A stretch of DNA of 64,000 nucleotides from Bdellovibrionales bacterium. Its GTDB lineage: Bacteria > Bdellovibrionota > FAC87 > UBA2466. Location of the stretch: positions 848 to 64,847 of the forward strand of contig SXPJ01000019.1 in the NCBI GenBank assembly GCA_005776395.1, in the 5' to 3' direction. The position numbers and the translations under genes are program-made. The notes below the pieces were generated by a model. The model was not told where the DNA came from, ran no database searches, and saw only the letters and a list, made by a program, of their open reading frames with translations. Positions within the stretch are counted from its first letter, which is position 1, and every line of letters begins with the position of its first letter. Below are positions 29,961-46,558 of this stretch, piece by piece.

Positions 29961-30242
29961 ATGAAGTCTTATAACTCTGAATTGGTAGAGGACGTAGAAG
30001 AGTTACTTGAAAAAGTGGTTCTCGAAGAGGTCACTACCGCAGTTTGGAAAACTTTTGAACAGGCCCTCTCTCAACTCGATCCGCAGAGTCGTGAGCTCTT
30101 AGAAAACCACTTAAATGGAACTACTACAGAGCAATTGAGTCAAGAGACTCACCTTCCAGAAAAAGAGATTAAGAACTGGATCAAACAGGTCAAACGACAG
30201 CTTCAACAAAATATTCGAAAAGATTTACGTGTGAGGCAATAA
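29961..30242 (+). CDS. small protein with a sigma-70 region-4-like HTH
   Basis: LSQLDPQSRELLENHLNGTTTEQLSQETHLPEKEIKNWIKQVKRQLQQNI resembles sigma region 4.2. No region 2 is present. Confidence 0.35.
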   Translation: MKSYNSELVEDVEELLEKVVLEEVTTAVWKTFEQALSQLDPQSRELLENHLNGTTTEQLSQETHLPEKEIKNWIKQVKRQLQQNIRKDLRVRQ

Positions 30243-31631: not shown

Positions 31632-31635
31632 ACCT

Positions 31636-32205
31636 ATGAAACCTCTTCACTCAAAATTTAATTCCTCCATAGTGGAAGAACTAGATAGGGCTGAAGAAGA
31701 TCACTTAAGAAACTGCCCAGAGGCAGATTTTACTACCCGCTTAGCGGCCTTACTTGTCGATGCAATATTATCTTATCTCGTAATCTCAGGTCTTCAGAAT
31801 CTATGCCGAGCCTTAGGGATTTTACTAAACCACGCCCCCGATGCCTCATGGAGCCCCTATTTCAATCCCCAATTCATCTCTACTTTGAGCCATAACGCCT
31901 CTGAAATAACCTCTTTTATTGAAATTACATCCAAAATACTTTTTGTTTATTTCTATTTTGTAGCTTCAACAAGTCTTGCGGGGGGAACAGCTGGAAAACT
32001 TCTTTTAGGTCTTCGCGTATTAGACATTAATACTGGAAAAAAACTAGGGCCAGGTCGAGTTTTAATTCGTCTTCTTATCGCGCTCATAGCAAATTGCCTT
32101 AGCTTCGGTCTTATTTATTCAATAAGCGCTCTTAAAAAAGATAAAAGAACCTACCATGATGAAGTCACTCGAGCGACCGTGAAAAAAGTGCACGGTGTGA
32201 AATGA
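31636..32205 (+). CDS. RDD family membrane protein
   Basis: RLAALLVDAILSYLV followed by hydrophobic helices and a late D-containing segment (YHDEVT) fits the R-D-D pattern. Confidence 0.6.
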   Translation: MKPLHSKFNSSIVEELDRAEEDHLRNCPEADFTTRLAALLVDAILSYLVISGLQNLCRALGILLNHAPDASWSPYFNPQFISTLSHNASEITSFIEITSKILFVYFYFVASTSLAGGTAGKLLLGLRVLDINTGKKLGPGRVLIRLLIALIANCLSFGLIYSISALKKDKRTYHDEVTRATVKKVHGVK

Positions 32206-33464
32206 TTTTGCTAGTTCCTCTTAATCCCGAGGTTCCTCACCTTTTAAAGCCAAAACTATGGCCCTCGATCCTAATGGTCTGTTGCTTAATCATAGGTTAC
32301 ATTTTTACTAAGGATATTATCAAGGTCGATTGGATCTATGTTGAATCCGTAGAGACTAAACTTGAAAAAAAAGTAGGGAAATCGGCCCATCTAGATCAAG
32401 AGACTGAGAACTACTTAGCCCTTCGACCACTATTAAAAATAGCCCCCTCACAGGCTGACTGGGATATCGAAAGACTTATCAAGGCCAATTTTATCCACGG
32501 ATCACTAACCCACCTCTTACTGAACTCAATTGGTGTTTTTGCCGGCATTCGTATTTGCATGACCTTTATTCCCTTCCTAAGTGCTCTAGTTATTTTTTTG
32601 TTAGGGGGCACAATGGGTCTCTGGATTAGCCTTTTAACATCGCAGCAAATTTCAGATTTCATTCCTCATGTAGGGGCTAGCGCAGGTTTATTCGCGTTAA
32701 TGGGAACCTATTACATATTCAATTTTCGCTTCCGCACACAATATTTTTTTTGGCTTCCCATACGAAGAGGTTTTGTCTCATTAAAAACCTCTTGGTTTTT
32801 TTTTGTTGATGTCATTCTCTTAGAACTTATTCTGTCAGGAGCTCAACTTTTTCCCGATCGAGTCGACAGCGTAGATCACATAGCTCATGTAGTCGGTTTT
32901 TCCTCTGGAATGATTCTTGCTCTGGGTTTACGACTGATACTTCGCTGGCCAGCCTTTCTTCAAACCAGAGCAGAGTACCTTTATTGGCATCTCTTTATTA
33001 AGAAAAGTCCCAGGTTAAAGAACAATAAAATCCATTCCTGGCTAGAGCTTTTAAGACTCAATCGATACAACGATTTTTTAAAACTGCGCCTCTGTAGCTC
33101 CATCAAAAAGACCGCTGTCTCCATTTCTAATCCTGAGCTAAATGAGATCTTTAAATTTTTTGCCCCCACATTCGTAAGATTAAATACCTCGATTGTAACC
33201 CAAGTTATACGAACTCTACTTTTTGAGAACAGACAGATTCCCCAGAGATGGCTTTCAAGAATTCCCTACGATATTTTAATTCGTATAGCAAAGTCCATGG
33301 CGACACAACCCAAACATGAATACTACCTATATCGATTTCTTCTTGAATATAAAAAGGCTCAGGACCTTAATGGCAAAAAGGTCTCTACCGTAGAAAAATT
33401 AATGGCCCGATTGGAATCAGAAATACAAAATTCGAATAGTGCTTCAACTCAAGAGGTAGGCTAA
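32202..33464 (+). CDS. rhomboid family intramembrane serine protease with a C-terminal extension
   Basis: HGSLTHLLLNS (H..xH..N), GASAGLFALMG (the catalytic GxSxG) and HIAHVVGF (the catalytic His). It overlaps the RDD gene through an ATGA junction. Confidence 0.8.
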   Translation: MILLVPLNPEVPHLLKPKLWPSILMVCCLIIGYIFTKDIIKVDWIYVESVETKLEKKVGKSAHLDQETENYLALRPLLKIAPSQADWDIERLIKANFIHGSLTHLLLNSIGVFAGIRICMTFIPFLSALVIFLLGGTMGLWISLLTSQQISDFIPHVGASAGLFALMGTYYIFNFRFRTQYFFWLPIRRGFVSLKTSWFFFVDVILLELILSGAQLFPDRVDSVDHIAHVVGFSSGMILALGLRLILRWPAFLQTRAEYLYWHLFIKKSPRLKNNKIHSWLELLRLNRYNDFLKLRLCSSIKKTAVSISNPELNEIFKFFAPTFVRLNTSIVTQVIRTLLFENRQIPQRWLSRIPYDILIRIAKSMATQPKHEYYLYRFLLEYKKAQDLNGKKVSTVEKLMARLESEIQNSNSASTQEVG

Positions 33465-33525: not shown

Positions 33526-35712
33526 TTAGGGACAAACTTCAGTACAACTCGGATAAATATATTCTGAAGGGACATCAAAATTCCCCCGTTCCATTTTGCA
33601 ACGTGAAAGTTGAAAGTGATTTTGACAGGAGTCGCCACAACCGACACTTCGCTTATTCCACATGGGAATTTGCGCATCTGGAGTAACGAAACTATTTTGC
33701 CAACGGAGTAGGCACACTCGAGGGGGGGCGCCGCCCCCTTCCAACGTACAACTGTTATTACATTCTTTTAGGTTGTACGAAACGTCGCCTTGTAAGACTC
33801 CGTTCTTGCAAAGACGCTCGGAAACTTTACATCCTCGACCACAATTATTGACCACGGTACCAAAATATTTATAGCCCTTAATTTTACTCCCCTCGGGAAT
33901 GCTGCCTCCCCAAGGCAACGGGCAGCCAGGGCAATCTAAAATATAGCTTTCAAACCACTGAGGTGGGGCAGCTGAATCATTGGCAGCGCTATAAGGGATG
34001 CCATTCTGCAGTAAGCCTCCATTTTCGCACTTAAAATCAAATGTATGAATCTCAGGCTGATCTCCGCAGCCTATCTTGTCCTTATCATAAAGCGTGCGAG
34101 AGGTGTTATTGGGAAGACTGCCATAGCCTGGCAAGGAACAGCCCGAACAGCTCGACTGATGACAATAGTATTGGTATGGGAAATCGGAAGGCGAAGTATC
34201 AACGGTAGAGCCATCCGTTGTTCGAACCAAAAAACCATTGCTGCATTTTAATGAAATTGAGGGGATCTCATCACAACGAGTTCCACAGGACACCGAGGGT
34301 TGATTTACCAATATGACGGTTTTACCATCCTCGATAGTCCCCAGTGCATTAGGCAGTCCGCACGAACAGCCGGTAGCTTCAGTGCATTGACCGGAGTTAT
34401 GGGTCGAGTCGCCCACAAATTCGTATTGGTAAGATCCATCGGGCTGAACTACTTCGCTACACGTTTTCTCTTGGGCTATTTGTGCACAGGTTTGACCGCA
34501 GGCCGCAATCGTCGACCTGTAGAAAGTCGTCCTATCCCCTACTGGAATTTGTATACCAGGCCGATCGGAAACATTGCAAAGGCAAGGACGTTTATTACAG
34601 CTGGCCGCCGCATAGGTGATATCCCCCGCAAAAACCCCATTCGTACAAGCACGATCCTTAAAATCACAACTCATTCCACACCCTGCGGAACTCTCCTTGG
34701 CAAAACGATGATTATTTCCGTGAAGGATCGAAATCGATGTCCCCGGCACTTTACAACTCACACAGGCCTCTACCGAACACTGATATTTGTGTCCCGAAAA
34801 CACAGGAGTGGAAAAATCTACCACCTGAGTCAGGTTAGCCACGTTCCGGAATTGGCCATTATCGCAAGTCACGGAGACCGAGGGCTTCGCATTACAAGTC
34901 TCGCCACAGGCAACCGTTTGAGCGGTAGAGATTGTTCGAGATTGTCCATGCGCCAGGACACCCAAGCCATTGGGGAGTGTGCAAAAACAATTAGTTGCCT
35001 CACTGCATGTTCGGAATCGATTCGTACTACTTCCATCTAGAACAAACTCTTCCACTCCAGCGGTCGTGCGAGAAATACAGGTGCGAACCTGTGCAAAATC
35101 TGTTTCGCAGGTTTTTCCACAGGTGGATTTCTCAATACCATAGAGTTTGATCGTTCCATTTAAGCTGATAAAGGCTGAGTTATCGGGGAGGGCACAGCGA
35201 CAAGGTTTGCGATTACAGGAGAAAAATTTATACTCGTCTGAACCGGACAAAACACCAGAGTTGCAGGTGCGTAGCTGCTTTAGAGTTTCACAGCTATCGG
35301 TACAACCTACCATATCACTCTTATAAACCTCCACGGTTTCACCTGACAAAATCAGATTCTGTCCTAACGAACATGAAGGGCATTCTTGGACTTCACACTT
35401 GAAAAATTTTCCCGTCAACTCCTTGTCAAAGAGTCCATTATTACATGTCAGCTCCTCAGAGTATTTTCCACAGCCCTCTTTGCAAGTCACTGTGTCTTTG
35501 GCATAAACCATTATCTTTGAACCATGTGCAACGCTACCGACGGGAGTATCACAGGGGCATTGGCCTTTATCGCAAGATTGTTTGCTTAAAATCGTTTGAT
35601 TTTTCTGAACCGCATCCGATTTTTCTTTTACCTTGGTCATACAGCCGGAAAAAAATAATAGGGCCAGTAATCCACTAGTCGTCAGAAAAGATTTCAACTT
35701 GAACGAGATCAT
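33526..35712 (-). CDS. cysteine-rich tandem-repeat lipoprotein (728 aa, about 11 six-Cys modules)
   Basis: The lipobox is LLFFSGC. It contains repeated modules C-x(1,2)-C-x(~20-24)-C-G-x-x-C-x(7-9)-C-x(14-30)-C. The ATG overlaps the upstream stop (ATGA). Confidence 0.75.
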   Translation of the reverse strand: MISFKLKSFLTTSGLLALLFFSGCMTKVKEKSDAVQKNQTILSKQSCDKGQCPCDTPVGSVAHGSKIMVYAKDTVTCKEGCGKYSEELTCNNGLFDKELTGKFFKCEVQECPSCSLGQNLILSGETVEVYKSDMVGCTDSCETLKQLRTCNSGVLSGSDEYKFFSCNRKPCRCALPDNSAFISLNGTIKLYGIEKSTCGKTCETDFAQVRTCISRTTAGVEEFVLDGSSTNRFRTCSEATNCFCTLPNGLGVLAHGQSRTISTAQTVACGETCNAKPSVSVTCDNGQFRNVANLTQVVDFSTPVFSGHKYQCSVEACVSCKVPGTSISILHGNNHRFAKESSAGCGMSCDFKDRACTNGVFAGDITYAAASCNKRPCLCNVSDRPGIQIPVGDRTTFYRSTIAACGQTCAQIAQEKTCSEVVQPDGSYQYEFVGDSTHNSGQCTEATGCSCGLPNALGTIEDGKTVILVNQPSVSCGTRCDEIPSISLKCSNGFLVRTTDGSTVDTSPSDFPYQYYCHQSSCSGCSLPGYGSLPNNTSRTLYDKDKIGCGDQPEIHTFDFKCENGGLLQNGIPYSAANDSAAPPQWFESYILDCPGCPLPWGGSIPEGSKIKGYKYFGTVVNNCGRGCKVSERLCKNGVLQGDVSYNLKECNNSCTLEGGGAPPRVCLLRWQNSFVTPDAQIPMWNKRSVGCGDSCQNHFQLSRCKMERGNFDVPSEYIYPSCTEVCP

Positions 35713-38333
35713 GGGCAGGCCTCCTTTTCTTCACAGGAAGGAAAGGCATATTCATCATCCCCCGTCCATTTTTGAAAATGGCAGGTTCGCATAATACGGT
35801 GTTTAGAGCACTTATCTGGCCCCACAACACACCTACTGTTGAAGGCGGAGACCGAACCGTAAAACTCAACCTCGCCCCCTCCCCATGGAAGGATGCAGGA
35901 AAGTTTCTGGAAAGGTGCAATATTCACATTGATTTTATTCATTCTGCACTTGCTAAAGCTTAAGCAAATCCCATCACCGCCGCCGTCCCTCAACCCCGTT
36001 CGCCGCTTGATACCAAATCCTGGGCCCTCATCATTCCCACCGCCCCCCCCTGTACCTCCACCCTCGCCATCATCCGTCTGATCCGTACAGGTTACTGAAG
36101 GATACTTAGTGAGTTCTGCCCCAGTCCACGTGCCCCCCTCCTGACAGGTAATTACTGCAGATATGGAATTACAGATTGTACCGACCGGAGCCGGATCCGA
36201 TTGAAACACCTTTAATGTCTTTCCAAAGGGGGTCTTCACGCCAAGATAATCACAATTACAAACTGACGGTTTACAGGTTGGGAAGATATATCGAGTGGTA
36301 TCGTAGCTGGATAACTTTCCATTGGTACAGGTCACCAATGCTGAATTTCCTGTCTCCTGACAGGCCGTGGGAGCAGCACAGTCTGCCTTATCTAATGAAA
36401 ATATTCGGATTGTTCTTCCGTTATCAATGGTTCCTCCCCAAGGGACCGAGCAACCACACGGAATCATCTCGCAGGATTTATACTTGTACAGCGAAGGGCT
36501 ATCCCCCTTACTACTGCTTGCACCAGCGATTGAGCAGCTTAAGGTCGCTTTAGCATCATCGCAGCCATTGAGATTACAGTTGGTCACTTTGTCAGTGGTA
36601 TAAAAATTGGGGTTCGACTGTCCAAACTTAATAATATTTCCATTTACGTTGCAGTCGCAGTTTTTAGCCGTACACGAGCTAGCGGAGGTGTATTGCGCCA
36701 ACTCCGTATTTGTAACAGCAACCAGTGTAGATCCGACGCGTTTTTTAAATACCCTATCCTCACAGGTTAGTTGCAAGTTAACACATGCCTCTCCGCAAGC
36801 GGGGGTTGAGGTCTTCGAAACATTTAACTTAGCCAAATGGGCCACTTCAACCTTCTGACCTGCTCCATCGGTGAAGGTACAGGAAAGCTTATTGATGATA
36901 CAATTTTTGTACTTAAAAATGCCGGCATCGTAAACGGGGGTCAGGACTTTATTGGCGCAGCTAACCTGTATTTGATAGGCTGAATTAGTACAGGCATCCG
37001 GAACTGCCAAACTATTTTGACTAAACTGGTGAAGGGTAGTGACACCCCCATTAGCAAGTAATAACGATGATCCATCGTCTAACGGGATTCGACAACCACA
37101 GTCCTCCTGTTCACAACTATCCGCACTATAATTAAGATAACTAGCGTTTACCGACGATAAACTTCCCGCAGCGCAGGTCACGGCTCCAGCAAAATCCAAA
37201 CAACGCTCGGTACAGCTGACTAATGGCTTGCTATAAACCGGCTTTGACTGCCCGTCCGCAACAACATCGCGGCCTGGTCGCACGCAATGGCACACGCGCT
37301 TGGTACAAGTATGGGCAGGATACTTTTGTAACTCCTCGATGCTCAACACTTGCGCCGGAGTTCCCGTTTCCCATTTTCCGTCATTACAGGTGATTGACAG
37401 TCCATTGCAGTTTAATCCACATGCTGGATCGCTAAAATTAAAAACATCGGTGCTTGCATGATGTACGTAGCTGATCGTTTCGCCTGGTAACGTACAACCA
37501 CACACTGAATCGTTGCACTGGGGAAATTCATATTTCGGATCTCCCTGCCACAAACCATCATTACAATACCGAAGTAATGATTGCTGATTGCATTTCAAAT
37601 CACAACTTGAACCCTGAGTCTTATAATAAACCTTCCCTTGTCCATGCGCGATAAACTCCCCCGTTTTGTGTAAGACTTCACAAGAAGCACAGACTCCGCC
37701 TACGCAAGCCCGCTTCACCACTTGTCCGGCCTTGATTTCCTCATTCTGACTCAAATCAGAACAGGGCAAACATGTAGCCCGGTTCTGCCGAGGGCAAAAG
37801 GGACATTCGGGTGGTTGTACATAAAACTCTAATTTATTAATGGTCTCATCCGCAAAAGATGGATCAAAAGAAAATTCCAATTCAGCATTACACCCCCAGG
37901 GCAAATTACTAAACTTAAGCTCTTCTATCGTTCCTCCGCTCTCGCGTTTTCCTATAACTTGAAGGCTACTGGCCCTTAGCCCACAAAGCGTAAGTTCTTT
38001 ACACGGAATAGATTTATCAGAGACCTCAAGCGCATTAACCACAGCGCCACCGGGGCAAACTTCCCCCAGTTTTAAAGTCTCAGAAATTTTGGATTTCTCA
38101 CGACAGTAGAGCAAACGACCCGCAGGTACACTTTTTCGAATTACAACTTCATTGCCTTGCATGCACTGCGCTTGTCCCTGAGTAGTGGTATTTGAAACCA
38201 AAACCATTGTGGTTTGTTTATTTAGGGCGAAAATATCGAGGGCCTTCTGAAAGGCGTCAGAAATTTTGGCGCTACAGCCCGATAGCAAAGCTGCTGAAGC
38301 TAAAAAGCCTAGGGTATAAAGGTGTTTTCGCAC
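35709..38333 (-). CDS. cysteine-rich tandem-repeat lipoprotein (874 aa, about 10 modules plus a Gly-rich linker)
   Basis: The lipobox is ALLSGC. It has the same six-Cys module as its downstream paralogue, and both end in ...PSC.E..CP. The GTG start lies 3 nt after the S8 gene stop, preceded by AAGGGGG. Confidence 0.75.
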   Translation of the reverse strand: MRKHLYTLGFLASAALLSGCSAKISDAFQKALDIFALNKQTTMVLVSNTTTQGQAQCMQGNEVVIRKSVPAGRLLYCREKSKISETLKLGEVCPGGAVVNALEVSDKSIPCKELTLCGLRASSLQVIGKRESGGTIEELKFSNLPWGCNAELEFSFDPSFADETINKLEFYVQPPECPFCPRQNRATCLPCSDLSQNEEIKAGQVVKRACVGGVCASCEVLHKTGEFIAHGQGKVYYKTQGSSCDLKCNQQSLLRYCNDGLWQGDPKYEFPQCNDSVCGCTLPGETISYVHHASTDVFNFSDPACGLNCNGLSITCNDGKWETGTPAQVLSIEELQKYPAHTCTKRVCHCVRPGRDVVADGQSKPVYSKPLVSCTERCLDFAGAVTCAAGSLSSVNASYLNYSADSCEQEDCGCRIPLDDGSSLLLANGGVTTLHQFSQNSLAVPDACTNSAYQIQVSCANKVLTPVYDAGIFKYKNCIINKLSCTFTDGAGQKVEVAHLAKLNVSKTSTPACGEACVNLQLTCEDRVFKKRVGSTLVAVTNTELAQYTSASSCTAKNCDCNVNGNIIKFGQSNPNFYTTDKVTNCNLNGCDDAKATLSCSIAGASSSKGDSPSLYKYKSCEMIPCGCSVPWGGTIDNGRTIRIFSLDKADCAAPTACQETGNSALVTCTNGKLSSYDTTRYIFPTCKPSVCNCDYLGVKTPFGKTLKVFQSDPAPVGTICNSISAVITCQEGGTWTGAELTKYPSVTCTDQTDDGEGGGTGGGGGNDEGPGFGIKRRTGLRDGGGDGICLSFSKCRMNKINVNIAPFQKLSCILPWGGGEVEFYGSVSAFNSRCVVGPDKCSKHRIMRTCHFQKWTGDDEYAFPSCEEKEACP

Positions 38334-38336
38334 GAG

Positions 38337-41300
38337 CTATTTCCCCCTTCCGAAGGTTTCCACGGGTACCGTACGCGAGCCAAAATCGGAGAGTAGGTGT
38401 AGAATCATAACACCATCTTGAAAAAATCGAATATCGAAAGGAACGCTTTGCATTGCTAACGCCACAGAATCAATCTTGGCATTTTCAATAGGCCTTTCAT
38501 TCTTCTTGAGAAATGCCTGAATTTCTCCATTTATTTCTGGAGTCAGAGTCGAAATATTGTCCACTCGACTAGAAACCGGAAAACGAAAACCACAACCCCC
38601 TCCTTCATGAGTTCCACTCGCAATGACATCATTCCCGAGCATTTGACTGTAGGCCCCTATCGGGGTTTCGTATTTTTTCACCTCTCTCATCAGTTTTTCT
38701 ACTCGATAAGTTCTAAAAATATAATCACCGATGTATTTTTCCTTATCTAGTGGATAAGCAACAATCGATGGGGTGTAGTCCTCTCCCACATCGTACCAAT
38801 CCCAATACATTTCATAACCACGACGGACTGCATTTACACTTCCCCCCGTTCGATCTGCCAAATGCTTGCGATTTCCAGGGGCGACTTCAGGTCCACGATC
38901 TTGGACGTGAAAATGACCCACCTGTATACCATCCAACAAATCGCCCGTAAGCACCTCGCGAAACTGTTTTGCTCGGACCGCATCAAAATAGGCCTGTTCA
39001 TGGCCCGGAATAACATGCGTGCTAACTGTCGCATTCGGCCAGAAAGTTGGGTAGGTTCTGATATGTTCATCCATCAGTGTGCGCCCCAGCGGCAGTAATA
39101 TTTTCTCCAACCCCAAATTCCCAAGAGCACGTCTAAATCCAGTGCTGGAATCGTAGTAATCGGCCACGACATTTCTATCGGTGAACTCACTATCATAGAC
39201 ATCGGGGACACAATTATCACCGGTAGATAGGGAACACGGGTCACTGAAGTTGGGAAAGTCGGTTACTTTTTTCAATCGACACTGTAGGTTCCACCTACTA
39301 AAACTGAGTTCTACATGAATGGGTGAAGGGGAAACGCTGCATAGGCTTCCTGATACCAATACCGTATCCTCACCTCGGGTGAGCTGCACGTTTGACGGTA
39401 CCGTTTCTTGAAAATTCACTTCAGGAAACTGAAACTGCTCTTGATTGAACTGGTCTTTTAATTTGATCTTAGTAGCTGCACTACGAGGGCTAGTTGCTCT
39501 AATGGAAAATTTTTTGCCTTGCAGTGTTTTTTGGATAATGTCCTTTAGTGGGAATCCAAACTCAAATCCATGTGCGATCGTAAGGGTACGACATTTATCA
39601 AAAAACAGTGGATTCCCCTCTAATCCAGATTTATACACCGCTCTACCTGTTTGCCTCATGGAAAAACTATGGGCTACAAAAGGCCCCCCCCTACGCCCCA
39701 AAAAATCAAAAGATACCGAATGGTTCGGATTCATAAGTGAATAGGAATAGGAAAAACTAGTAGTTAGAGGAACTCCCGCCTCATCAATCATTTCCACTGA
39801 GGCGGGTTTATTATTTCCCTGTAGGCAAGCCCAGCCCTGAACATACAGATACTGCTGATCCGTACGAAGGTTGGTAACCTCTCCATAGAAAGGGGAGGCG
39901 TTTGTACTGAAATCAAAGTCCCTCACATTTACTTTTTGTACAGCATCCAGTCCAAAATTATTCTTAAACTTTCCATCACCATTGGGCACCCTATAGTAAA
40001 TAGCTACCGCCACATAAATATTAAGATCCGGATCGCTGCCATCCGGCAACATGGGAAGCAGTTCATTTCTAGAAAGTTTATAATTCATAGATCCGGAATT
40101 TGAGGGCAATCCAAAATCTTGAATTAAGCAAGGGGCGGAATAGTTACAACCCGGGCTCACATCAAACAACCCAATACGAGCCCCAAAATGGGTCGCCTCT
40201 AAATTCCATGTTGCAGAGAATGTGATCTCTGCCTGTTTGGTTGTTGTATTATAATAGGTGTTTTTATTCGAAATATTAATGGGCTGTTGCACCTCGCCGC
40301 TGTCTAGCAGATACTTGAGAAGTTTCCCCAGTTTCGACAAATCCAATACGGCACCATTTCGAATAAAGTTAGTCAGCGTACTGTCGTTTCGCGCGCCTTG
40401 TTTAGTCACCAAATACTCGACCATTTGTTCATCAAAACTTAGCCCATTATGTTTTAAGAATCCGATGGTCATGGCCACTGCGCCAGTTACGATCGGAGTA
40501 GAAAATGAAGACCCCTGTCCCACGCCAAAATCACCCGGAAGAAGGGCATAGCCCTGCGGAGTCGCACCCGTCGCTATCGTACTAGCGATCGAAGTTCCTG
40601 GAGCAAGAATCTTCACATGCTCAGGACTAAAATTAGAACCATGGGTTTCCTTATCCCCTTCCTCTAATTTTCCTGCGGGAGTTCCCCATCCTACAGTGAT
40701 AAAACCGGGGTATTGCTTGGCATAAACTGCCGGATACGATTCCTTTACTCTTAAATCGTCATAATGATTTCCTGCCGATACTACGATTACAGCCTTGCGA
40801 TTCAGTAAGCTCACGACAGCATTTCGAAGGGCGGGATCATCACTCGTAGCGCCACCCATAGATATATTAACCACTTCGGCACCCAGCTCTAACGCCCGCT
40901 GCATGGCATTTCCAATTTCAGTTGTCGTCGTTCGGCTATTACAATCCCCTACACTTAACGAAATGAGCTGAGCATTTCTGGCCACTCCAACTACACCTAG
41001 AGAATTCTGGCTCTTCGCCGCAATAATTCCTCCAACAAACGTTCCGTGGGTATTATTTGGAATTTCATTAGTATATGGAACGGCTCTACATTCAGGCGCC
41101 GACTTCGAGTAATTGGAACGCATATCCTCACGATGAATGACCCCCGGAAGTTCTGTAGAGGTCCCTAAATCAGCATGTGTTCCCACGCCAGTGTCGATCA
41201 CCGCAACTTTTACAGAATCCAAATTCCCCGGATAGAAATTAATTCCCGAAAGTTCAAAATTAACCGTGTCTAGATAACTCTGCTGATGGGAGCTATACAG

Positions 41301-41798
41301 AGGATCATTGAAGCCATTAGTTTGGTATACCGACTCATCCGAGATACCCATAATACATTCATCCTTATTCACCCAATCGCTAATTTGATTTCTAGTCATA
41401 GGAAGAGAAAGAGCAAAGGAATAGTATTGAATTTTTTGAATAGGATTTCGCTCCGGATGCCTATAAAAATAAAATGAAAGTGCTGTAGAATTCGACTCGG
41501 GGGTATAAACCCTGGTTAAGCACGTATTATCGACCACCGCCACAATATTGCTCTGAGTATTATTAAGTGATTGTTCTTCAGATGAATTGCCAGAGATCGC
41601 GGAACGGGCCCCATAGACATTCCGCACAAGTAAAACCTTACGGGCAACGAAAGGTGATTCGTAAGGTTCATGCGGAGCAAATTTGGGCAGGCTTTCCCAC
41701 TCTGACTTTTTCTTCTCGCAGGAAAGCAAGTTTAAAACCAGCACGCAAATACTAATGAACCCTACAAAACTTGAGATTCTATTTTTCAATAAAACCAT
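38337..41798 (-). CDS. S8 (subtilisin-like) serine peptidase lipoprotein with a ~700-aa C-terminal extension
   Basis: The lipobox is LNLLSC. The catalytic motifs are VAVIDTGV (Asp), NTHGTFVGGIIAA (His), NISMGG (oxyanion Asn) and GSSFSTPIVTGAVA (Ser), all within about residues 195-450 of 1153. Confidence 0.85.
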   Translation of the reverse strand: MVLLKNRISSFVGFISICVLVLNLLSCEKKKSEWESLPKFAPHEPYESPFVARKVLLVRNVYGARSAISGNSSEEQSLNNTQSNIVAVVDNTCLTRVYTPESNSTALSFYFYRHPERNPIQKIQYYSFALSLPMTRNQISDWVNKDECIMGISDESVYQTNGFNDPLYSSHQQSYLDTVNFELSGINFYPGNLDSVKVAVIDTGVGTHADLGTSTELPGVIHREDMRSNYSKSAPECRAVPYTNEIPNNTHGTFVGGIIAAKSQNSLGVVGVARNAQLISLSVGDCNSRTTTTEIGNAMQRALELGAEVVNISMGGATSDDPALRNAVVSLLNRKAVIVVSAGNHYDDLRVKESYPAVYAKQYPGFITVGWGTPAGKLEEGDKETHGSNFSPEHVKILAPGTSIASTIATGATPQGYALLPGDFGVGQGSSFSTPIVTGAVAMTIGFLKHNGLSFDEQMVEYLVTKQGARNDSTLTNFIRNGAVLDLSKLGKLLKYLLDSGEVQQPINISNKNTYYNTTTKQAEITFSATWNLEATHFGARIGLFDVSPGCNYSAPCLIQDFGLPSNSGSMNYKLSRNELLPMLPDGSDPDLNIYVAVAIYYRVPNGDGKFKNNFGLDAVQKVNVRDFDFSTNASPFYGEVTNLRTDQQYLYVQGWACLQGNNKPASVEMIDEAGVPLTTSFSYSYSLMNPNHSVSFDFLGRRGGPFVAHSFSMRQTGRAVYKSGLEGNPLFFDKCRTLTIAHGFEFGFPLKDIIQKTLQGKKFSIRATSPRSAATKIKLKDQFNQEQFQFPEVNFQETVPSNVQLTRGEDTVLVSGSLCSVSPSPIHVELSFSRWNLQCRLKKVTDFPNFSDPCSLSTGDNCVPDVYDSEFTDRNVVADYYDSSTGFRRALGNLGLEKILLPLGRTLMDEHIRTYPTFWPNATVSTHVIPGHEQAYFDAVRAKQFREVLTGDLLDGIQVGHFHVQDRGPEVAPGNRKHLADRTGGSVNAVRRGYEMYWDWYDVGEDYTPSIVAYPLDKEKYIGDYIFRTYRVEKLMREVKKYETPIGAYSQMLGNDVIASGTHEGGGCGFRFPVSSRVDNISTLTPEINGEIQAFLKKNERPIENAKIDSVALAMQSVPFDIRFFQDGVMILHLLSDFGSRTVPVETFGRGK

Positions 41799-42047: not shown

Positions 42048-43304
42048 CTAAAAACCAACTAACCCGTAGATTAAGTTCTGGCCAAAACTACGCTCGATCT
42101 CGAGTTCACTAATGGTTTTGAAGCCCTGAGTTCTCACTCCAACCCCCCAACCAATCGTGCCCGCACCTTTATGCAACAAGGAAATATCTGCCAAGTAATG
42201 GGAGCTAACCCCCTTGGATCCGAAACCGAAAGACATCACATCGAGGGCGATGACATAACCCTTTCCGAGAAACAATTCAAAGACACTCCCGACACCCAAT
42301 TGGCTAGCATTGATCCCAATTTGCGTAGTGTCGCTTGTATCATTCGTAACAACATAACCTAACTTGGGACGAATGATAAATGTCGACCCTAGGACAAATT
42401 GGTAATTTAGGTACACGGCAAACTGAGTAAAGGTGATTGCTTTATCGCTTTTACTAATTGGAATCGCAAAATCTAGATCTAGTGCCACCCCTAATCCACG
42501 CCAAAGCGGATAATGAGGAACCTTCAAAAGCAAGCTTGGCTTAGAATCCGAAATATCGATGTCTGGGCCGGAAATTTTAAGCATCGAAAAGCCCGCCCCC
42601 CCCATGAGAGTGATCGGCTGAATTTCCTCGTTTTTATCCTTGGGCTCTACATTTAACGACTCCAGTTGGAAGTCATATTCCTTCCCCTGAAAACGGAAGG
42701 TAAACTTCCCCAGAATCTTGGTTCCCGTTCGTGCGCTGCCAAGCTCATAATAGCGCCATAGTTCTCCCTTTCCTTTTGTTTCAAAGAGCGTGGCATTTTC
42801 AATATCGGCTTCTTTGGGGAAACTTAACATCAAGGCTTGAACTCCCTCCTTTGTTTCACAGCTTGTGCCGATATAAAAAGGAACTGCTTTAGCCATTGCT
42901 CGCAAAGCTATTTTTTTCGATTTGCAATTTTCATCAATAATTGGAGATGTCTCGTCAAATTTACCCGCTATCTCTAAGAACATTTTTTGAGTCGTGTTTT
43001 TGAGCAGAAACTTTTCATTTAGGCCGCCCAACTGCATGAAGATCTGCTCCCCCTTGATGAGGGCTTTTATATTCTTGTTTTGGGCTTTAACTTCCGTGTA
43101 GACCGCAAATTCTTGGGCTCGTAAACTTAGGGTGGGGGTTAAAACTCGGACTTTGTCCTTATTTAAAGTCCACGCCCACTTAAAACGCTGTTCCGTCTGA
43201 AAAGGGATACGTTTCAGGTTTTCTATCTTGTTTACCTGAATACGTAAGTCTGCGTGCAGAGAGAGGCTTAGTATGCTGAAAAAAAACAGAGTATATTGCG
43301 ACAT
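42048..43304 (-). CDS. outer-membrane beta-barrel-like protein
   Basis: The signal peptide is FFFSILSLSLHA. The C-terminal half has alternating-hydrophobicity strands, and the protein ends in ...IYGLVGF, an aromatic terminal residue typical of OMPs. Confidence 0.45.
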   Translation of the reverse strand: MSQYTLFFFSILSLSLHADLRIQVNKIENLKRIPFQTEQRFKWAWTLNKDKVRVLTPTLSLRAQEFAVYTEVKAQNKNIKALIKGEQIFMQLGGLNEKFLLKNTTQKMFLEIAGKFDETSPIIDENCKSKKIALRAMAKAVPFYIGTSCETKEGVQALMLSFPKEADIENATLFETKGKGELWRYYELGSARTGTKILGKFTFRFQGKEYDFQLESLNVEPKDKNEEIQPITLMGGAGFSMLKISGPDIDISDSKPSLLLKVPHYPLWRGLGVALDLDFAIPISKSDKAITFTQFAVYLNYQFVLGSTFIIRPKLGYVVTNDTSDTTQIGINASQLGVGSVFELFLGKGYVIALDVMSFGFGSKGVSSHYLADISLLHKGAGTIGWGVGVRTQGFKTISELEIERSFGQNLIYGLVGF

Positions 43305-43505: not shown

Positions 43506-44345
43506 ATGAATTTAAGTTCAATGATTGGTTTTTTGGCTGCAGGGCTCACTCTATGGATTACGGTCATTGCAGACTCTCCAAACCCTCATGCCCTTTTAGA
43601 ATTAAAGGGCATGCTTTTGGTCATTGGCGGAACCTTTAGTGCTGGACTGATTATTTTCCCCTTTTCCAAGCTTGTTGAACTAAATAAGTTTTTATTCTGG
43701 GGGGTACTGCTTAAGCGCACTCCAAATTTAAGACAGTTAGCAAAGGAAATCATTGCCGCCGCGAGCTTAGATAAAAAAGAACACTATTTACTACCCATCT
43801 GTCCCAGCAGCCATCCCTTTTTAACCGAGGGATTTAAATTACTTTCTGAAAATACTTTAGGAGAACATGATTTACAGGAGGTCTTGAATCGCAGGAGTCA
43901 GTATTTTAAACAAAGGTACGTCAATGACGCTAAAATGCTATCGATACTTGCAAAATTTCCCTCTTCATTCGGAATGCTGGGCTCTACTGTCGGATTGATC
44001 GATATGATGTCTAATTTAGGAAAAAATGGCCACGACGGGATCGGCCCTGCTATGGCGATGGCACTGGTTGCCACATTTTGGGGGCTCGTTTTCACGTACA
44101 TGATTTTTATGCCACTTTCAGATTATGCGATTCGACTCAATGGAGAAGATGGCATTATTCGGCAACTCATTGTCGAGGGCATCTTGATGGTCAAGCGAGG
44201 CGAGGATCCCAAGATAGTCCTAGACAAAGTTAATGGTTTCTTGGCTTTGGAAGAGCGCTTAAATTTTCGTAATGTGCGCATTCCTGATAACTATTGGCAA
44301 GAGGCCAAGGAAGAGATCTCCAAGCTCAAAAGAAAAGCAGGCTAA
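43506..44345 (+). CDS. motA: MotA/PomA-type stator proton-channel subunit
   Basis: Four TM segments with a large cytoplasmic loop. Contains FPSSFGMLGSTVGLIDMM and GPAMAMALVATFWGLVFTYMIFMPL, the MotA/TolQ/ExbB signature. An AGAGGGA RBS is present. Confidence 0.8.
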   Translation: MNLSSMIGFLAAGLTLWITVIADSPNPHALLELKGMLLVIGGTFSAGLIIFPFSKLVELNKFLFWGVLLKRTPNLRQLAKEIIAAASLDKKEHYLLPICPSSHPFLTEGFKLLSENTLGEHDLQEVLNRRSQYFKQRYVNDAKMLSILAKFPSSFGMLGSTVGLIDMMSNLGKNGHDGIGPAMAMALVATFWGLVFTYMIFMPLSDYAIRLNGEDGIIRQLIVEGILMVKRGEDPKIVLDKVNGFLALEERLNFRNVRIPDNYWQEAKEEISKLKRKAG

Positions 44346-44353
44346 AGTAAATT

Positions 44354-45541
44354 ATGAGTTTCTCCCCTCAAAAGCCGCCTACACTAGATAACAAAAAGAA
44401 TGAAAATGTATCCGGTCGTTTAGTGGAATTACTGAGCAGTAAGCAGCAGCCGGAAGAAATGCGCAAAGCTCTGCATTCGTCACCCGATCACGAGGAAGAG
44501 ATTCATCTCGACGAGCGGTGGCTCATTGCTTACGCCGATAAAATGACCATCCTTTGTGGCTTCTTTATTATGCTTTTTGCGATCTCCACCCTGGATCCGG
44601 TCAAGCTTCAGAAGGTAACTAAGTCGGCGGAAAAAAGTTTTGGTCGACCCGATTCTAATATTCCTAACCAAGCCTTTATCGATCCGACGGTGGTGGAAAA
44701 ACTGAAAGTAGAAACACAAATTCAAATACAGCAAATTCAGATGCTTGAGGTTCAGAAGAAGGAATTGGAACAGGTAGTTGCAAAGCAAAGCAAGGATGAC
44801 GCAAAGAAAGAGAATTTAGTCCTTAAAATAGATCAGTTGAGTAAAGAAAAAATGGAAACTGAGAATAAGCTCAAGGTGATGAGTGAACAGATAAAGAAAA
44901 TGGATATTTCTCAGCAGAAACAAGTACAACTCACGACGCAAATAAACGAATTAGAGCGCAAAAACGAAACGCTACAGAGACAAATTAAGGTTCAAGACAA
45001 CAACCCCAAAGTATCTCCAGAGCAATTGATTAGTTTGAAAATTGAGAAAGATGAATTGAAGTCGAAGTTGAATATCTTGCAGCGGGAGCTTACACAGAAA
45101 AAGGAAGAAACCATTGAGTTAAGTAAAGAGCTTCAAATTTCCAAGGCGAATGCGATGGGGAGCGGTTTTGCCGCATTCGTGATGAGCTGGCCCACTCGAG
45201 ATCATGATATCGATCTCGTAGTGAAGGATCCCCAGGGAAATACTTTTGATTTTAAACGCCGCAGTTACACCTCTCTCCCGGGATTATTGGTATTAGATAC
45301 GCGCCAAGGGCCAGGTGTGGAAGTATGGCAATCGGATAGAGTTATCAGCGGCATCTATACATTCAACTACCTCTTTTACAATGCCTACGGAAATATGGAG
45401 CCCTGTCCAATCACAGGGACATTATTTACTTCAAAAGGGCGCATTGAATTACCCAAAATTAATTTAAATATTCACAAAAATAAATCCGCTAATTTTCGCA
45501 TCTCCATTGATGAAAATGGCAAGGCCCGTTTGCTTCCCTAA
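44354..45541 (+). CDS. MotB-like stator subunit lacking an OmpA-type domain (N-terminal MotB TM, coiled coil, DUF2135-like C-terminus)
   Basis: ERWLIAYADKMTILCGFFIMLFAIS is the MotB TM motif with the conserved Asp. Residues ~110-265 are heptad-rich (Q/K/E/L). The C-terminus FVMSWPTRDHDIDLVVKDPQGNTFDF...LVLDTRQGPGVEVW...GIYTFNYLFYNAYGN resembles the YfaP/DUF2135 pattern (W....D.DLhV.eP.G......D...GyGPE....G.Y...v.yY). Confidence 0.65.
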   Translation: MSFSPQKPPTLDNKKNENVSGRLVELLSSKQQPEEMRKALHSSPDHEEEIHLDERWLIAYADKMTILCGFFIMLFAISTLDPVKLQKVTKSAEKSFGRPDSNIPNQAFIDPTVVEKLKVETQIQIQQIQMLEVQKKELEQVVAKQSKDDAKKENLVLKIDQLSKEKMETENKLKVMSEQIKKMDISQQKQVQLTTQINELERKNETLQRQIKVQDNNPKVSPEQLISLKIEKDELKSKLNILQRELTQKKEETIELSKELQISKANAMGSGFAAFVMSWPTRDHDIDLVVKDPQGNTFDFKRRSYTSLPGLLVLDTRQGPGVEVWQSDRVISGIYTFNYLFYNAYGNMEPCPITGTLFTSKGRIELPKINLNIHKNKSANFRISIDENGKARLLP

Positions 45542-46509: not shown

Positions 46510-46558
46510 TATAACCCAACTGTTGCTTATAGAGCCTATAGGGTCTATAAAACAGGCC

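What the first reader, a model, noticed from the sequence alone, without database searches (positions are those of the whole stretch)
33526..38333. Two tandem, translationally coupled lipoproteins built from about 20 copies of an unassigned six-cysteine module
Both ORFs (874 aa and 728 aa) start with lipoprotein signals (LLSGC, FFSGC). Apart from a non-repeat N-terminal region of ~210 aa in the 874-aa protein, they consist almost entirely of 60-75-aa modules. Each module has the spacing C-x(1,2)-C-[LP.G..I..G....Y]-x-C-G-x-x-C-x(7-9)-(R/T)C-x-x-G-x(10-30)-C.

Examples:
- CRCALPDNSAFISLNGTIKLYGIEKSTCGKTCETDFAQVRTC...RTC
- CGCSVPWGGTIDNGRTIRIFSLDKADC...VTCTNGKLSS...PTC

Short and long module subtypes alternate. 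Both proteins end with the same ...PSC.E..CP tail. The 874-aa protein also has a GGGTGGGGGN linker before its last module. The genes overlap by ATGA, which suggests coupled translation.

I cannot place the module in any family I know. It is not the myxobacterial Cys repeat, EGF or Kazal. The layout (LP.G, a conserved aromatic, then ...G.W.G....P.C at the end) is loosely reminiscent of Sushi/CCP, but that is only an impression. Disulfide-rich surface lipoproteins of this size are unusual in bacteria and could be adhesins or protease substrates/partners.
Basis: seen in the sequence. Interest (0 to 1): 0.78.

Follow-up and report, generated by a model that had tools for sequence, protein, structure and literature searches.

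The report
Cysteine-stapled repeat lipoproteins with a protease
Two neighbouring lipoprotein genes of an uncultured predatory bacterium (Bdellovibrionota) are strings of 9-10 copies of a small disulfide-rich module that belongs to a large family matching no family in Pfam or NCBIfam and no solved structure, and they always sit beside a lipoprotein protease, a probable outer-membrane protein and a non-flagellar motor-type channel, so they are probably cell-envelope stalks or adhesins of an undescribed system.

Summary
ORF A (35709-38333, minus strand, 874 aa) and ORF B (33526-35712, minus strand, 728 aa) have lipoboxes and overlap by ATGA behind a strong ribosome-binding site. They contain 9 and 10 copies of a 55-71-aa Cys-rich module.

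- **Repeat is real:** a profile built only from distant homologues recovers all 19 copies (120.7 and 207.4 bits; best of 400 shuffles 6.0).
- **Broader family:** the six-Cys form is a subtype of a ~57-aa module with four invariant Cys. That family has 3,932 representative clusters.
- **Carriers:** those named are Bdellovibrionota and Parcubacteria.
- **No known relative:** Pfam, NCBIfam, PDB sequences and Foldseek (on a model with pLDDT 96.5) give no significant match.
- **Sushi/CCP idea fails:** profile-profile comparison gives 1.3% probability.
- **Alternation:** short and long modules do not strictly alternate.
- **Gly-rich "linker":** it is the most conserved part of A.
- **Gene linkage:** distant module proteins have no S8 neighbour. 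True A orthologues lie beside the 1,150-aa S8 lipoprotein in 8 of 8 related loci, with B present in 7. A putative outer-membrane protein and a MotA/MotB-like pair lacking a peptidoglycan-binding domain usually lie alongside.

Best reading: lipid-anchored, disulfide-stapled stalk or adhesin proteins that partner a protease in a conserved envelope system. The specific function is inferred, not shown.

The parts
35709..38333 (-). Gene A: 874-aa lipoprotein (lipobox LLSGC20). It comprises an Ig-like N-terminal domain, 8 modules, a conserved Gly-rich/basic element, a terminal module and a Cys-Pro tail.
   Evidence: ORF; modules; 7 orthologues at 42-53% identity.
33526..35712 (-). Gene B: 728-aa lipoprotein (lipobox FFSGC24). 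It comprises 9 modules, a conserved EGGGAPPR element, a terminal module and a Cys-Pro tail.
   Evidence: ORF; modules; orthologues P0002-P0008.
35709..35712 (-). ATGA overlap between the stop codon of A and the start codon of B.
   Evidence: An A/B overlap is also seen in L002, L006, L007, L008, L010 and L011.
35720..35726 (-). Shine-Dalgarno sequence AAGGAGG, 7 nt upstream of B's ATG, inside the coding end of A.
37692..38273 (-). Non-repeat N-terminal domain of A (residues 21-214), with 12 conserved Cys and the motifs LPWGC and PPECPFCPRQN..TCLPC. The predicted core is an Ig-like beta-sandwich.
   Evidence: Alignment. AlphaFold2 pLDDT 79.7. Foldseek gives only generic Ig-like hits, best E 2.4e-3.
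36084..37691 (-). A modules 1-8 (residues 215-750).
35898..36083 (-). Conserved Gly-rich/basic element of A (residues 751-812): GGGTGGGGGNDEGPGFGIKRRTGLRDGGG... It holds the invariant positions G759, G760, G762, G764, G766, N767, D768, E769, G770, P771, G772, R778 and G780.
   Evidence: Invariant columns. The G.GND[DE]GPG motif is present in every A orthologue, about 110 aa from the C-terminus.
35712..35897 (-). Terminal module of A plus its tail (residues 813-874, ...FPSCEEKEACP).
33757..35565 (-). B modules 1-9 (residues 50-652).
   Evidence: AlphaFold2 model of residues 109-237: pLDDT 96.5, pTM 0.73.
33715..33756 (-). Conserved element of B before its last module (residues 653-666, NSCTLEGGGAPPRV).
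   Evidence: EGGGAPPR is present in B orthologues of 6 loci, about 70 aa from the C-terminus.
33529..33714 (-). Terminal module of B plus its tail (residues 667-728, ...YPSCTEVCP).
38337..41798 (-). Upstream gene: 1,153-aa lipoprotein (LNLLSC27) with a subtilase S8 domain at residues 195-477 and about 670 aa of unassigned C-terminal sequence. Its stop codon lies 3 nt before A's start.
   Evidence: Pfam PF00082 at E 1.7e-34. PDB subtilisins at E about 1e-13. The motifs AVIDTGV, HGTFV, SAGNH and GSSFSTP were read. It is conserved next to A in 8 of 8 loci.
42048..43304 (-). u418: 418-aa secreted protein with no family. It has a signal peptide and ends ...YGLVGF, like an outer-membrane beta-barrel. 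It is a conserved neighbour.
   Evidence: no hits. Orthologues lie adjacent in 7 of 8 loci. The L010 orthologue ends ...LRLRPF.
43506..44345 (+). MotA/ExbB-type channel subunit (279 aa), a conserved neighbour.
   Evidence: PF01618 at E 1.8e-14. Adjacent in L001, L002, L006 and L011; in L010 the candidate is an unscored 265-aa ORF just upstream of the MotB-like gene.
44354..45541 (+). MotB-like subunit (395 aa): plug/TM segment, a coiled coil of about 170 aa and a C-terminal beta domain. No OmpA-type peptidoglycan-binding domain was found.
   Evidence: PF13677 at E 7.3e-14. PDB MotB 6ysl at E 2.8e-9, N-terminal part only. Sequence. The L010 orthologue has the same layout.

Best explanation
A and B are paralogous, N-terminally lipid-anchored proteins of the cell envelope of an uncultured member of Bdellovibrionota.

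**Architecture**
- Each is a bead-string of 9-10 small beta-rich modules of about 57-70 aa.
- Every module is held by two invariant disulfides, and most copies here have a third.
- Neighbouring modules are joined by linkers of only 4-6 residues, so each protein should form a long, protease-resistant, fairly stiff stalk.
- The modules act as a spacer of variable number. The constant parts are A's Ig-like domain next to the lipid anchor and, at the far end of both proteins, a conserved Gly-rich element followed by a special last module and a Cys-Pro tail.

**Expression and genomic setting**
- The two proteins are made together, by translational coupling, with the upstream S8 subtilase, which is itself a lipoprotein.
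- All three belong to a conserved cluster that also encodes a probable outer-membrane beta-barrel (u418).
- The cluster further encodes a non-flagellar MotA/MotB-type ion-driven motor. Its B subunit carries a long coiled coil where a peptidoglycan anchor would normally be.

**Most likely function (inferred)**
A and B form the stalk or adhesin part of an outer-membrane lipoprotein-protease complex. This would be comparable in principle to the dentilisin complex of Treponema. It would hold the protease and the binding tips away from the membrane, for contact with prey or substrate. The S8 enzyme may process A at the conserved basic site (G-I-K-R-R) inside the Gly-rich element.

**Shown:** gene structure, repeats, family size, confident module model, conserved neighbourhood.

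**Inferred:** lipidation, disulfides, outer-membrane or surface location, physical complex, cleavage, role in attachment.
For: **Gene structure and coupling**
- ORFs, lipoboxes and overlap.
- Ribosome-binding site and the 3-nt S8-A gap.

**Repeat anatomy and family**
- 19 modules, confirmed with an independent profile and shuffles.
- Four invariant Cys plus one subtype-specific pair.
- The modules are mutually only 24% identical, so the array is ancient and maintained.
- Two-module AlphaFold2 model: pLDDT 96.5, pTM 0.73, all-beta with one short helical turn.
- 3,932 representative clusters match at E<=1e-3, with up to 43 copies per protein.
- Co-occurring domains are extracytoplasmic: PG_binding_1, BNR/sialidase-like, beta-helix, Big_9.
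- In Kaiserbacteria the module occupies the place that PKD repeats take in adjacent paralogue-like genes.

**Spacer role**
- A orthologues range from 596 to 1,051 aa and B from 457 to 756 aa. End domains, the Gly-rich element and the tails are kept throughout.
- A and B shrink together: 9/10 copies versus 4-5/6.

**Partner genes**
- A lies beside S8 in 8 of 8 loci, with S8 identity down to about 32%; B completes the S8-A-B array in 7, L009 showing no B orthologue.
- u418 is adjacent in 7 of 8 loci. MotA- and/or MotB-like genes are adjacent in 5 of 8 plus the window, with varying order and orientation.
- The S8 catalytic motifs are intact.

**Cysteine parity**
- Mature A has 64 Cys and mature B has 60, both even numbers.
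Against: - There is no experimental or structural evidence for location, for a complex or for cleavage.
- Distant module proteins have no protease neighbour. The module itself therefore says nothing about proteolysis.
- The dentilisin comparison is an analogy only. The PrtP model scores 44.6 bits against a cutoff of 300, and A and B are unrelated to PrcA and PrcB.
- Length co-variation rests on two lineages.
- The variable stalk length could also fit other roles.
Confidence: 0.5

Rival explanations
1. Periplasm-spanning coupling. A and B are anchored in the inner leaflet of the outer membrane and reach inward. There they meet the long coiled coil and beta domain of the MotB-like protein. The cluster would then be a force-transducing trans-envelope machine of the Ton/Tol or Agl-Glt type, with S8 as a maturation protease and u418 as the outer-membrane element.
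For: - The MotA/MotB-like pair is conserved next to the cluster despite rearrangements.
- MotB395 lacks an OmpA-type domain and has a coiled coil of about 170 aa plus a C-terminal beta domain.
- Many non-flagellar MotAB-type pairs have no known function (PMC12505986).
- Disulfide-rich proteins fit the oxidising periplasm.
Against: - A stalk of 9-10 modules, cut to 4-6 in L010 and L011, fits poorly with a fixed periplasmic width. The MotB-like protein of L010 is not shortened to match (391 aa).
- Other family members carry PG-binding, sialidase-like or beta-helix domains, which are typical of surface or wall proteins.
- There is no evidence of contact.
Confidence: 0.2
2. A and B are multi-headed inhibitors, regulators or sacrificial substrates of the S8 protease. 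Each Cys-rich module would act like a small inhibitor domain, as in Kazal-type or similar multidomain inhibitors.
For: - A is adjacent to S8, and co-transcribed with it, in every A orthologue locus.
- Small disulfide-rich tandem domains are a common inhibitor architecture (general knowledge).
- A conserved basic site lies in A's Gly-rich element.
Against: - No module matches any inhibitor family in Pfam, even at E<=10.
- Thousands of family members occur without a protease neighbour and with unrelated domains.
- Module sequences are poorly conserved between copies, with no shared reactive-loop motif.
- The conserved parts are the ends of the proteins, not the modules.
Confidence: 0.1
3. The module is a divergent bacterial Sushi/CCP domain, and so a member of a known fold family.
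For: - Both are about 60 aa with four invariant Cys in broadly similar spacing, an aromatic residue mid-module and C-x-N-G-x-[LWF]-S-G before the last Cys.
- The only PDB sequence hit is complement factor H, at E 0.45.
- Sushi or Sushi_2 hits occur in 3 of 89 modules, at E about 0.05.
Against: - hhalign of the 89-sequence module profile against 13 verified CCP modules gives probability 1.3%, with 13 columns aligned.
- Foldseek hits to CCP structures have E of about 4-6. The best hit overall is a fibronectin type I pair at E 0.15.
- The C2-C3 spacing is shorter than in CCP, and the model has a helical turn there.
Confidence: 0.07
4. The pattern is a chance or low-complexity artefact, or the ORFs are not real genes.
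For: None found.
Against: - The independent profile scores 120-207 bits, against a maximum of 6 in 400 shuffles.
- Full-length orthologues at 42-54% identity occur in at least 8 other contigs, with conserved Cys and synteny.
Confidence: 0.01

Closest known systems
Sushi/CCP (short consensus repeat) modules, Pfam PF00084
   Same: - Extracellular module of about 60 aa used in long tandem arrays with short linkers.
- Four invariant Cys.
- Beta-rich.
- A G-x-[WLF] turn before the last Cys.
   Different: - No significant sequence, profile or structure match.
- Shorter C2-C3 segment, carrying a helical turn.
- An extra disulfide pair in this subtype.
- Bacterial rather than metazoan or viral distribution.
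Fibronectin type I modules
   Same: Small two-disulfide beta modules in tandem. This is the best Foldseek hit for the two-module model (3ejh, E 0.15, probability 0.51).
   Different: - The match is not significant (TM 0.24-0.35, rmsd about 10 Å).
- FnI modules are about 45 aa with a different Cys spacing.
- Only 1 of 89 modules touches FnI_RECK.
Bacterial Ig-like, PKD and Big repeat surface proteins
   Same: - The same architectural role: variable numbers of small beta modules forming stalks in secreted, wall-bound or lipid-anchored proteins.
- In Kaiserbacteria this module stands where PKD repeats stand in neighbouring genes.
- It co-occurs with Big_9.
   Different: - Half the size.
- Stabilised by disulfides.
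- No sequence or fold match to them.
Dentilisin complex of Treponema denticola (PrtP subtilase lipoprotein with PrcA and PrcB lipoproteins)
   Same: - An operon of an S8 lipoprotein plus two accessory lipoproteins.
- In dentilisin one accessory protein is cleaved by the protease (established knowledge).
- Here there is an S8 lipoprotein, two coupled lipoproteins and a conserved candidate cleavage site.
   Different: - The S8 protein scores far below the PrtP model cutoff (44.6 versus 300 bits).
- A and B are unrelated to PrcA and PrcB.
- The gene order differs.
- A complex and cleavage are not shown here.
Non-flagellar MotAB-type stators (ExbBD-TonB, TolQR-TolA, AglRQS-Glt, GldLM)
   Same: A MotA_ExbB and MotB_plug pair encoded beside outer-membrane and lipoprotein components. 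The B subunit has a long periplasmic extension.
   Different: - No TonB, TolA, Glt or Gld homologues were identified.
- The B subunit ends in an unassigned beta domain.
- The link to A and B rests on gene neighbourhood only.

Membership tests
Sushi/CCP (PF00084) | Significant match to the family HMM or profile. | tested here: not met
   - Whole proteins: no hit at E<=1.
- 89 single modules: Sushi 1 hit at E 0.05, Sushi_2 2 hits at E 0.049.
- hhalign against 13 verified CCP modules: probability 1.3%.
Sushi/CCP (PF00084) | CCP beta-sandwich fold. | tested here: not met
   In a Foldseek search of the pLDDT 96.5 model against the PDB, CCP-containing chains (1qub, 7jik, 8q5r, 3n95) reach only E 3.8-5.5.
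Sushi/CCP (PF00084) | Four invariant Cys bonded 1-3 and 2-4. | not testable with these tools
   Four invariant Cys are present. The pairing could not be read because model coordinates are not returned.
Bacterial lipoprotein (Lgt/LspA substrate) | N-terminal signal peptide ending in a lipobox [LVI][ASTVI][GAS]C. | tested here: met
   LLSGC20 in A, FFSGC24 in B and LLSC27 in S8. A lipobox is found in A and B orthologues of all loci except L001 B, whose ORF start was over-extended. Actual lipidation was not tested.
Peptidase S8 (subtilase): the upstream neighbour | S8 domain with the Asp/His/Ser triad motifs. | tested here: met
   PF00082 at E 1.7e-34. Subtilisin and thermitase chains at E about 1e-13. 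The motifs DTG, HGT and GSSFSTP were read.
Dentilisin PrtP (NF033595) | Score above the equivalog cutoff. | tested here: not met
   44.6 bits against a cutoff of 300.
Flagellar MotB | Plug/TM segment plus a C-terminal OmpA-like peptidoglycan-binding domain. | tested here: not met
   MotB_plug is present. PDB MotB matches cover only residues 45-178. No OmpA domain was found at E<=0.01.
DUF1496 (PF07383) | Reciprocal profile match. | tested here: not met
   One of 89 modules hit at E 2.6e-5. The DUF1496 protein of pOXA-48 scores about 0 bits against the module profiles and has only 2 Cys in the domain.
EGF, Kazal, myxobacterial Cys repeat, TSP1, fn1 | Match to the family HMM. | tested here: not met
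   None of these appears among the hits of the whole proteins or of 89 modules, even at E<=10.
Anti-phage defence systems (PADLOC) | Match of the cluster proteins to defence models. | tested here: not met
   Only a generic subtilase hit for S8 and a coiled-coil hit (LmuB, 7e-5) for the MotB-like protein.

The most novel reading that the evidence does not exclude
The six genes (MotA-like, MotB-like with a periplasm-length coiled coil, the u418 outer-membrane protein, the S8 lipoprotein, A and B) would encode a previously undescribed ion-driven envelope machine of uncultured Bdellovibrionota. This machine would move, tension or expose disulfide-stapled stalks and a protease at the cell surface for prey attachment or surface proteolysis. 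The module itself would be a new fold family, shared by epibiotic predators and CPR episymbionts as a contact or stalk domain.
Probability: 0.2. Interest if true: 0.85.

Novelty: new variant of a known kind. Interest (0 to 1): 0.55.

Why it matters
**An unfiled domain family.** A repeat domain with about 3,900 representative clusters has a very confident predicted structure, yet no entry in Pfam or NCBIfam and no structural relative in the PDB. Naming it would annotate thousands of 'hypothetical' envelope proteins. The carriers that have names are bacteria living attached to other cells: epibiotic predators (Pseudobdellovibrio exovorus, Bdellovibrio qaytius) and Parcubacteria.

**A testable gene cluster.** The conserved cluster around A and B links a non-flagellar MotAB-type motor of unknown role to a protease and to stalk lipoproteins. 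That gives a concrete hypothesis for one of the many orphan stator systems, and possibly for how uncultured predators hold or attack their prey.

Tried and rejected
- **Pfam and NCBIfam on A and B:** nothing above noise.
- **Pfam on canonical relatives and on 89 single modules:** no consistent family.
- **DUF1496 lead:** followed to a real DUF1496 protein on pOXA-48 and rejected.
- **Sushi/CCP:** tested by profile-profile comparison with verified CCP modules and rejected as homology.
- **Foldseek of the two-module model:** no hit at E<=0.1 against the PDB or BFVD.
- **Foldseek of A's N-terminal domain:** only generic Ig-like sandwiches, with no functional clue.
- **PADLOC:** no defence-system signal.
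- **Genome scan with protein A alone:** found nothing. It worked only with the alignment.
- **Rhomboid, RDD, sigma-r4 and 462-aa genes downstream of B:** considered as partners, for example a rhombosortase-like sorting system. Rejected because they are not syntenic in any related locus and because A and B have no C-terminal transmembrane sorting signal.
- **Horizontal transfer as the cause of the raised GC:** unlikely, since the excess lies at codon position 2.
- **Promoter and terminator scans:** uninformative, with counts at the shuffle level.
- **Literature searches:** none describes the module or the cluster.
Full report

Yes. The window has two adjacent minus-strand ORFs exactly as described. 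A is 35709-38333 (874 aa, GTG start) and B is 33526-35712 (728 aa).

Both begin with a basic n-region, a hydrophobic core and a lipobox: LLSGC20 in A and FFSGC24 in B.

The stop codon of A and the start codon of B overlap as ATGA. An AAGGAGG sequence lies 7 nt before B's ATG, inside the end of A.

The gene upstream (38337-41798) ends 3 nt before A's GTG, so the three genes are packed as one transcription unit. No convincing internal terminator or promoter stands out, and counts are at the shuffle level.

Cys makes up 7.4% of A and 8.4% of B, and the Cys-to-Cys distances cycle regularly.

A seed HMM from 12 clean copies finds 10 copies in B and 9 in A. The copies not used as seeds score E 1e-5 to 1e-10, except A module 4 (residues 412-478), which scores only E = 0.019.

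As an independent test I built a profile from 258 modules of distant homologues only, with no orthologues and nothing from the window. It recovers all 19 copies and scores A at 120.7 bits and B at 207.4 bits. The best of 400 shuffled versions scored 6.0. No other ORF in the window carries the module.

- There are 19 copies, not about 21.
- Only 13 of the 19 have all six Cys.
- The lengths do not strictly alternate: A 59, 66, 60, 67, 70, 63, 62, 58, 55 and B 55, 56, 66, 71, 56, 67, 69, 68, 58, 57.
- The copies are only 24% identical to each other on average (range 10-38%). The array is therefore old and maintained, not a recent expansion.

**2. What is the module?**

B has 40 homologues at E<=1e-3 in the word-indexed search.

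Seven are close orthologues (37-54% identity) from metagenomes. The rest are distant repeat proteins:
- *Bdellovibrio* sp. *qaytius*, *Pseudobdellovibrio* and other Bdellovibrionota;
- Parcubacteria, including a Kaiserbacteria protein with a PG_binding_1 domain.

In the distant proteins the unit is about 56 aa with four Cys, roughly C-x-FNGQTVAHG-x-SV-x-AY-x(2)-SSV-x-YG-x(2)-C-x-SE-x-RTC-x-NGVLSGS-x(2)-Y-x-SC.

An alignment of 89 diverse modules has exactly four invariant Cys plus a nearly invariant Gly. The first Cys of C-x(1,2)-C and the first Cys of C-x(3)-C are an additional pair seen only in a subtype. That subtype also occurs in Parcubacteria proteins. The 'six-cysteine module' is thus a variant of a broader four-Cys family.

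An exhaustive HMMER search of 1.84 billion representatives with this profile gives 3,932 proteins at E<=1e-3, 2,467 at E<=1e-10 and 922 at E<=1e-30. Some proteins hold up to 43 copies.

Among the few members with names is a 998-aa, 15-copy protein of the cultured epibiotic predator *Pseudobdellovibrio exovorus* JSS. It is annotated only as hypothetical.

**3. Is it a known family?**

I found no evidence that it is.

- **Pfam and NCBIfam:** nothing for A or B, and nothing over the repeats of eight canonical relatives.
- **Single-module scan:** scanning each of 89 modules against Pfam at E<=10 gives only scattered hits:
  - Sushi_2, 2 modules;
  - Sushi, 1 module;
  - FnI_RECK, 1 module;
  - DUF1496, 1 module at E 2.6e-5.
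- **DUF1496 lead:** I fetched the DUF1496 protein of plasmid pOXA-48. It has two Cys in the domain and scores about 0 bits against the module profiles, so the lead is rejected.
- **PDB sequences:** a profile search returns only complement factor H, at E 0.45.
- **Structure:** a two-module AlphaFold2 model (B residues 109-237, 83-sequence alignment) is very confident, with pLDDT 96.5 and pTM 0.73. It is all-beta with a short helical turn at the C-x(3)-C segment.
  - Foldseek finds no PDB match at E<=0.1. The best hit is a fibronectin type I pair at E 0.15. CCP-containing chains reach only E about 4-6.
  - No viral match was found.
- **Sushi/CCP test:** I assembled 13 CCP modules from beta2-glycoprotein I, CD55 and CR1. 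The sequences were checked against PDB chains 1qub and 1ojv, and the CR1 modules were taken from 2q7z. hhalign against the 89-module profile gave probability 1.3%, with 13 columns aligned, essentially the C-x-x-G-x-[WL]-S turn.

The resemblance to CCP (size, four Cys, tandem use) is therefore architectural, not demonstrable homology. The disulfide pairing could not be read, because the tools return no coordinates.

**4. The rest of the two proteins**

A has 7 orthologues at 42-53% identity.

Its N-terminal 190 aa form a conserved Cys-rich domain with the motifs LPWGC and PPECPFCPRQN..TCLPC. The model (pLDDT 79.7) has a beta-sandwich core that matches only generic Ig-like domains, best E 2.4e-3.

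The Gly-rich 'linker' before the last module is the best-conserved stretch of the protein. Positions G759, G760, G762, G764, G766, N767-D-E-G-P-G772, R778 and G780 are invariant, and the consensus is GGTGGGxGNDEGPGxGIKRRxGL.

B orthologues have their own conserved element, EGGGAPPR-x-CLL[PR]W, in front of their last module.

Both proteins end with a distinctive last module and a short tail holding one more Cys.

Because the lipid anchor is N-terminal, these conserved elements sit at the far end of the stalk. They are the likely interaction or processing sites. This is inference.

**5. Genomic context**

The upstream gene encodes a 1,153-aa protein that itself has a lipobox (LNLLSC27). It has an S8 subtilase domain at residues 195-477 (PF00082, E 1.7e-34) with the Asp, His, Asn and Ser motifs intact. 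About 670 aa of unassigned sequence follow.

Beyond it lie three more genes:
- **u418 (42048-43304):** a signal peptide, no family hit, and a C-terminal ...YGLVGF that looks like an outer-membrane beta-barrel terminus (inference).
- **MotA/ExbB-type gene (43506-44345)**.
- **MotB-like gene (44354-45541):** its product has the plug/TM segment, a coiled coil of about 170 aa and a C-terminal beta domain, but no OmpA-type domain.

I mapped these proteins onto eight related loci. Two came from exact look-ups and six from a genome scan. All named ones are Bdellovibrionaceae, Pseudobdellovibrionaceae or Bdellovibrionales MAGs. The map shows:
- A next to S8 in 8 of 8 loci, with S8 identity down to 31-33%. 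B is also present in 7 of them; L009 has A but no B orthologue, only a weak cross-hit of B to A's own modules.
- u418 adjacent in 7 of 8 loci; the eighth contig is truncated.
- MotA- and/or MotB-like genes adjacent in five of them, plus the window. tblastn finds both subunits in L001, L002, L006 and L011. In L010 it finds only the MotB-like gene, and the 265-aa ORF just upstream of it is the likely MotA-like gene.
- Different orders and orientations of the accessory genes from locus to locus.

Adjacency that survives rearrangement at this divergence argues for a functional link.

By contrast, the rhomboid, RDD, sigma-r4 and 462-aa genes downstream of B are not conserved neighbours.

Distant module proteins in *B.* sp. 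*qaytius* and in Kaiserbacteria have no S8 gene nearby. In Kaiserbacteria the module protein follows two genes of like design, in which PKD repeats take the module's place.

Elsewhere the module co-occurs with PG_binding_1, BNR/sialidase-like, beta-helix, DUF4214 and Big_9 domains. This is the company kept by generic extracytoplasmic spacer or adhesion repeats.

**6. Variable number, constant ends**

- In six genomes A has 9 modules. B has 10 in the five of them where it is complete; in L007 it is cut off by the contig end.
- In L010 and L011, A has 4-5 (605 and 596 aa) and B has 6 (468 and 457 aa).
- In L009, A has 11 (1,051 aa), and no B is seen on a short contig.

The lipobox, A's N-terminal domain, the Gly-rich elements, the last module and the tails are kept throughout. 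So is the A/B overlap.

The modules thus behave as a length-setting spacer. A and B change length together, which would fit two stalks working side by side. Only two lineages support this point.

**7. How it most likely works**

*Shown:*
- two coupled lipoprotein genes behind an S8 lipoprotein gene;
- an ancient array of a confidently folded small beta module with invariant Cys;
- a large, unannotated family used in extracytoplasmic proteins;
- a conserved six-gene neighbourhood.

*Inferred:*
- the Cys form disulfides (mature A has 64 Cys and mature B has 60, both even numbers);
- the short 4-6-residue linkers and pTM 0.73 point to a fairly stiff rod;
- the proteins are anchored to the outer membrane and project their conserved tips;
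- they associate with the S8 lipoprotein.

My preferred mechanism, at about 0.5 confidence for the package, is a lipoprotein stalk or adhesin plus protease complex. It would work like the dentilisin complex without being a member of that family. The S8 enzyme may cleave A at the conserved G-I-K-R-R site.

The main rival, at about 0.2, is that the stalks point into the periplasm and couple to the long MotB-like coiled coil, as part of a force-transducing machine. Many such non-flagellar stator pairs still lack a function (PMC12505986).

An inhibitor or substrate role (about 0.1) and true CCP membership (about 0.07) are less likely, for the reasons given under the rival explanations.

**8. Novelty and verdict**

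The kind of protein is familiar: tandem-repeat envelope lipoproteins next to a protease. The module, however, matches no family in the curated libraries available here, and its predicted structure has no significant counterpart in the PDB. No paper found in the library describes the S8/A/B/u418/MotAB-like cluster.

I rate it a new variant of a known kind, with moderate interest of 0.55. The upside is clear if the cluster proves to be a new ion-driven envelope system, or if the module proves to be a contact domain typical of bacteria that live attached to other cells. That last idea rests on a handful of named carriers and is untested.

Noticed in passing
window 29961-33464 (+): Four genes run convergent with B: a 93-aa sigma-70 region-4 protein, an unassigned 462-aa protein, an RDD-family protein and a 420-aa rhomboid-domain protein. 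None is conserved next to the cluster in the 8 related loci.
   Followed up: partly
window 33526-41798: GC is 0.44-0.47 here, against about 0.40 in the flanks. For A and B the excess lies at codon position 2 (0.48-0.49, against 0.30-0.36 in neighbouring genes). It therefore reflects Cys/Gly/Ser/Thr/Ala-rich composition rather than clear foreign origin.
   Followed up: yes
window 46523-48354 (+): Transketolase is encoded as two overlapping genes: an N-terminal TPP-binding part of 295 aa, and a pyrimidine-binding plus C-terminal part of 315 aa.
   Followed up: no
L009 2233-7980: Variant cluster in a Pseudobdellovibrionaceae MAG. The order is u418, then A, then S8. A is 1,051 aa with 11 modules, and no B gene is visible on this 7,980-bp contig.
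   Followed up: partly
L004/L005 4839-9647: A Kaiserbacteria genome has three consecutive PG_binding_1 proteins. Two carry PKD repeats and the third carries this Cys module, so the two repeat types appear interchangeable as stalks.
   Followed up: partly
P0058, P0203, P0011 (family members): - A 2,688-aa metagenomic protein carries 43 copies of the module.
- The named carriers are epibiotic predators (Pseudobdellovibrio exovorus JSS, Bdellovibrio sp. qaytius) and Parcubacteria.
- This hints at enrichment in bacteria that live attached to other cells. The enrichment was not tested.
   Followed up: no
L001 15872-19199 (-): A second stator-like pair, with weak ZorA-like and weak MotB_plug hits, lies just beyond the MotA/MotB-like genes of the cluster in this relative.
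   Followed up: no
window 44354-45541 (+), residues 264-306 of the product: The C-terminal beta domain of the MotB-like protein weakly resembles the beta-jelly-roll domain of a Thermococcus subtilase (3afg, E 0.12). The match is not significant, but it is curious given the S8 neighbour.
   Followed up: no
window 45569-46306 (-): A 245-aa multi-pass membrane protein with no Pfam hit lies just after the MotB-like gene. It is not conserved next to the cluster in the related loci.
   Followed up: partly
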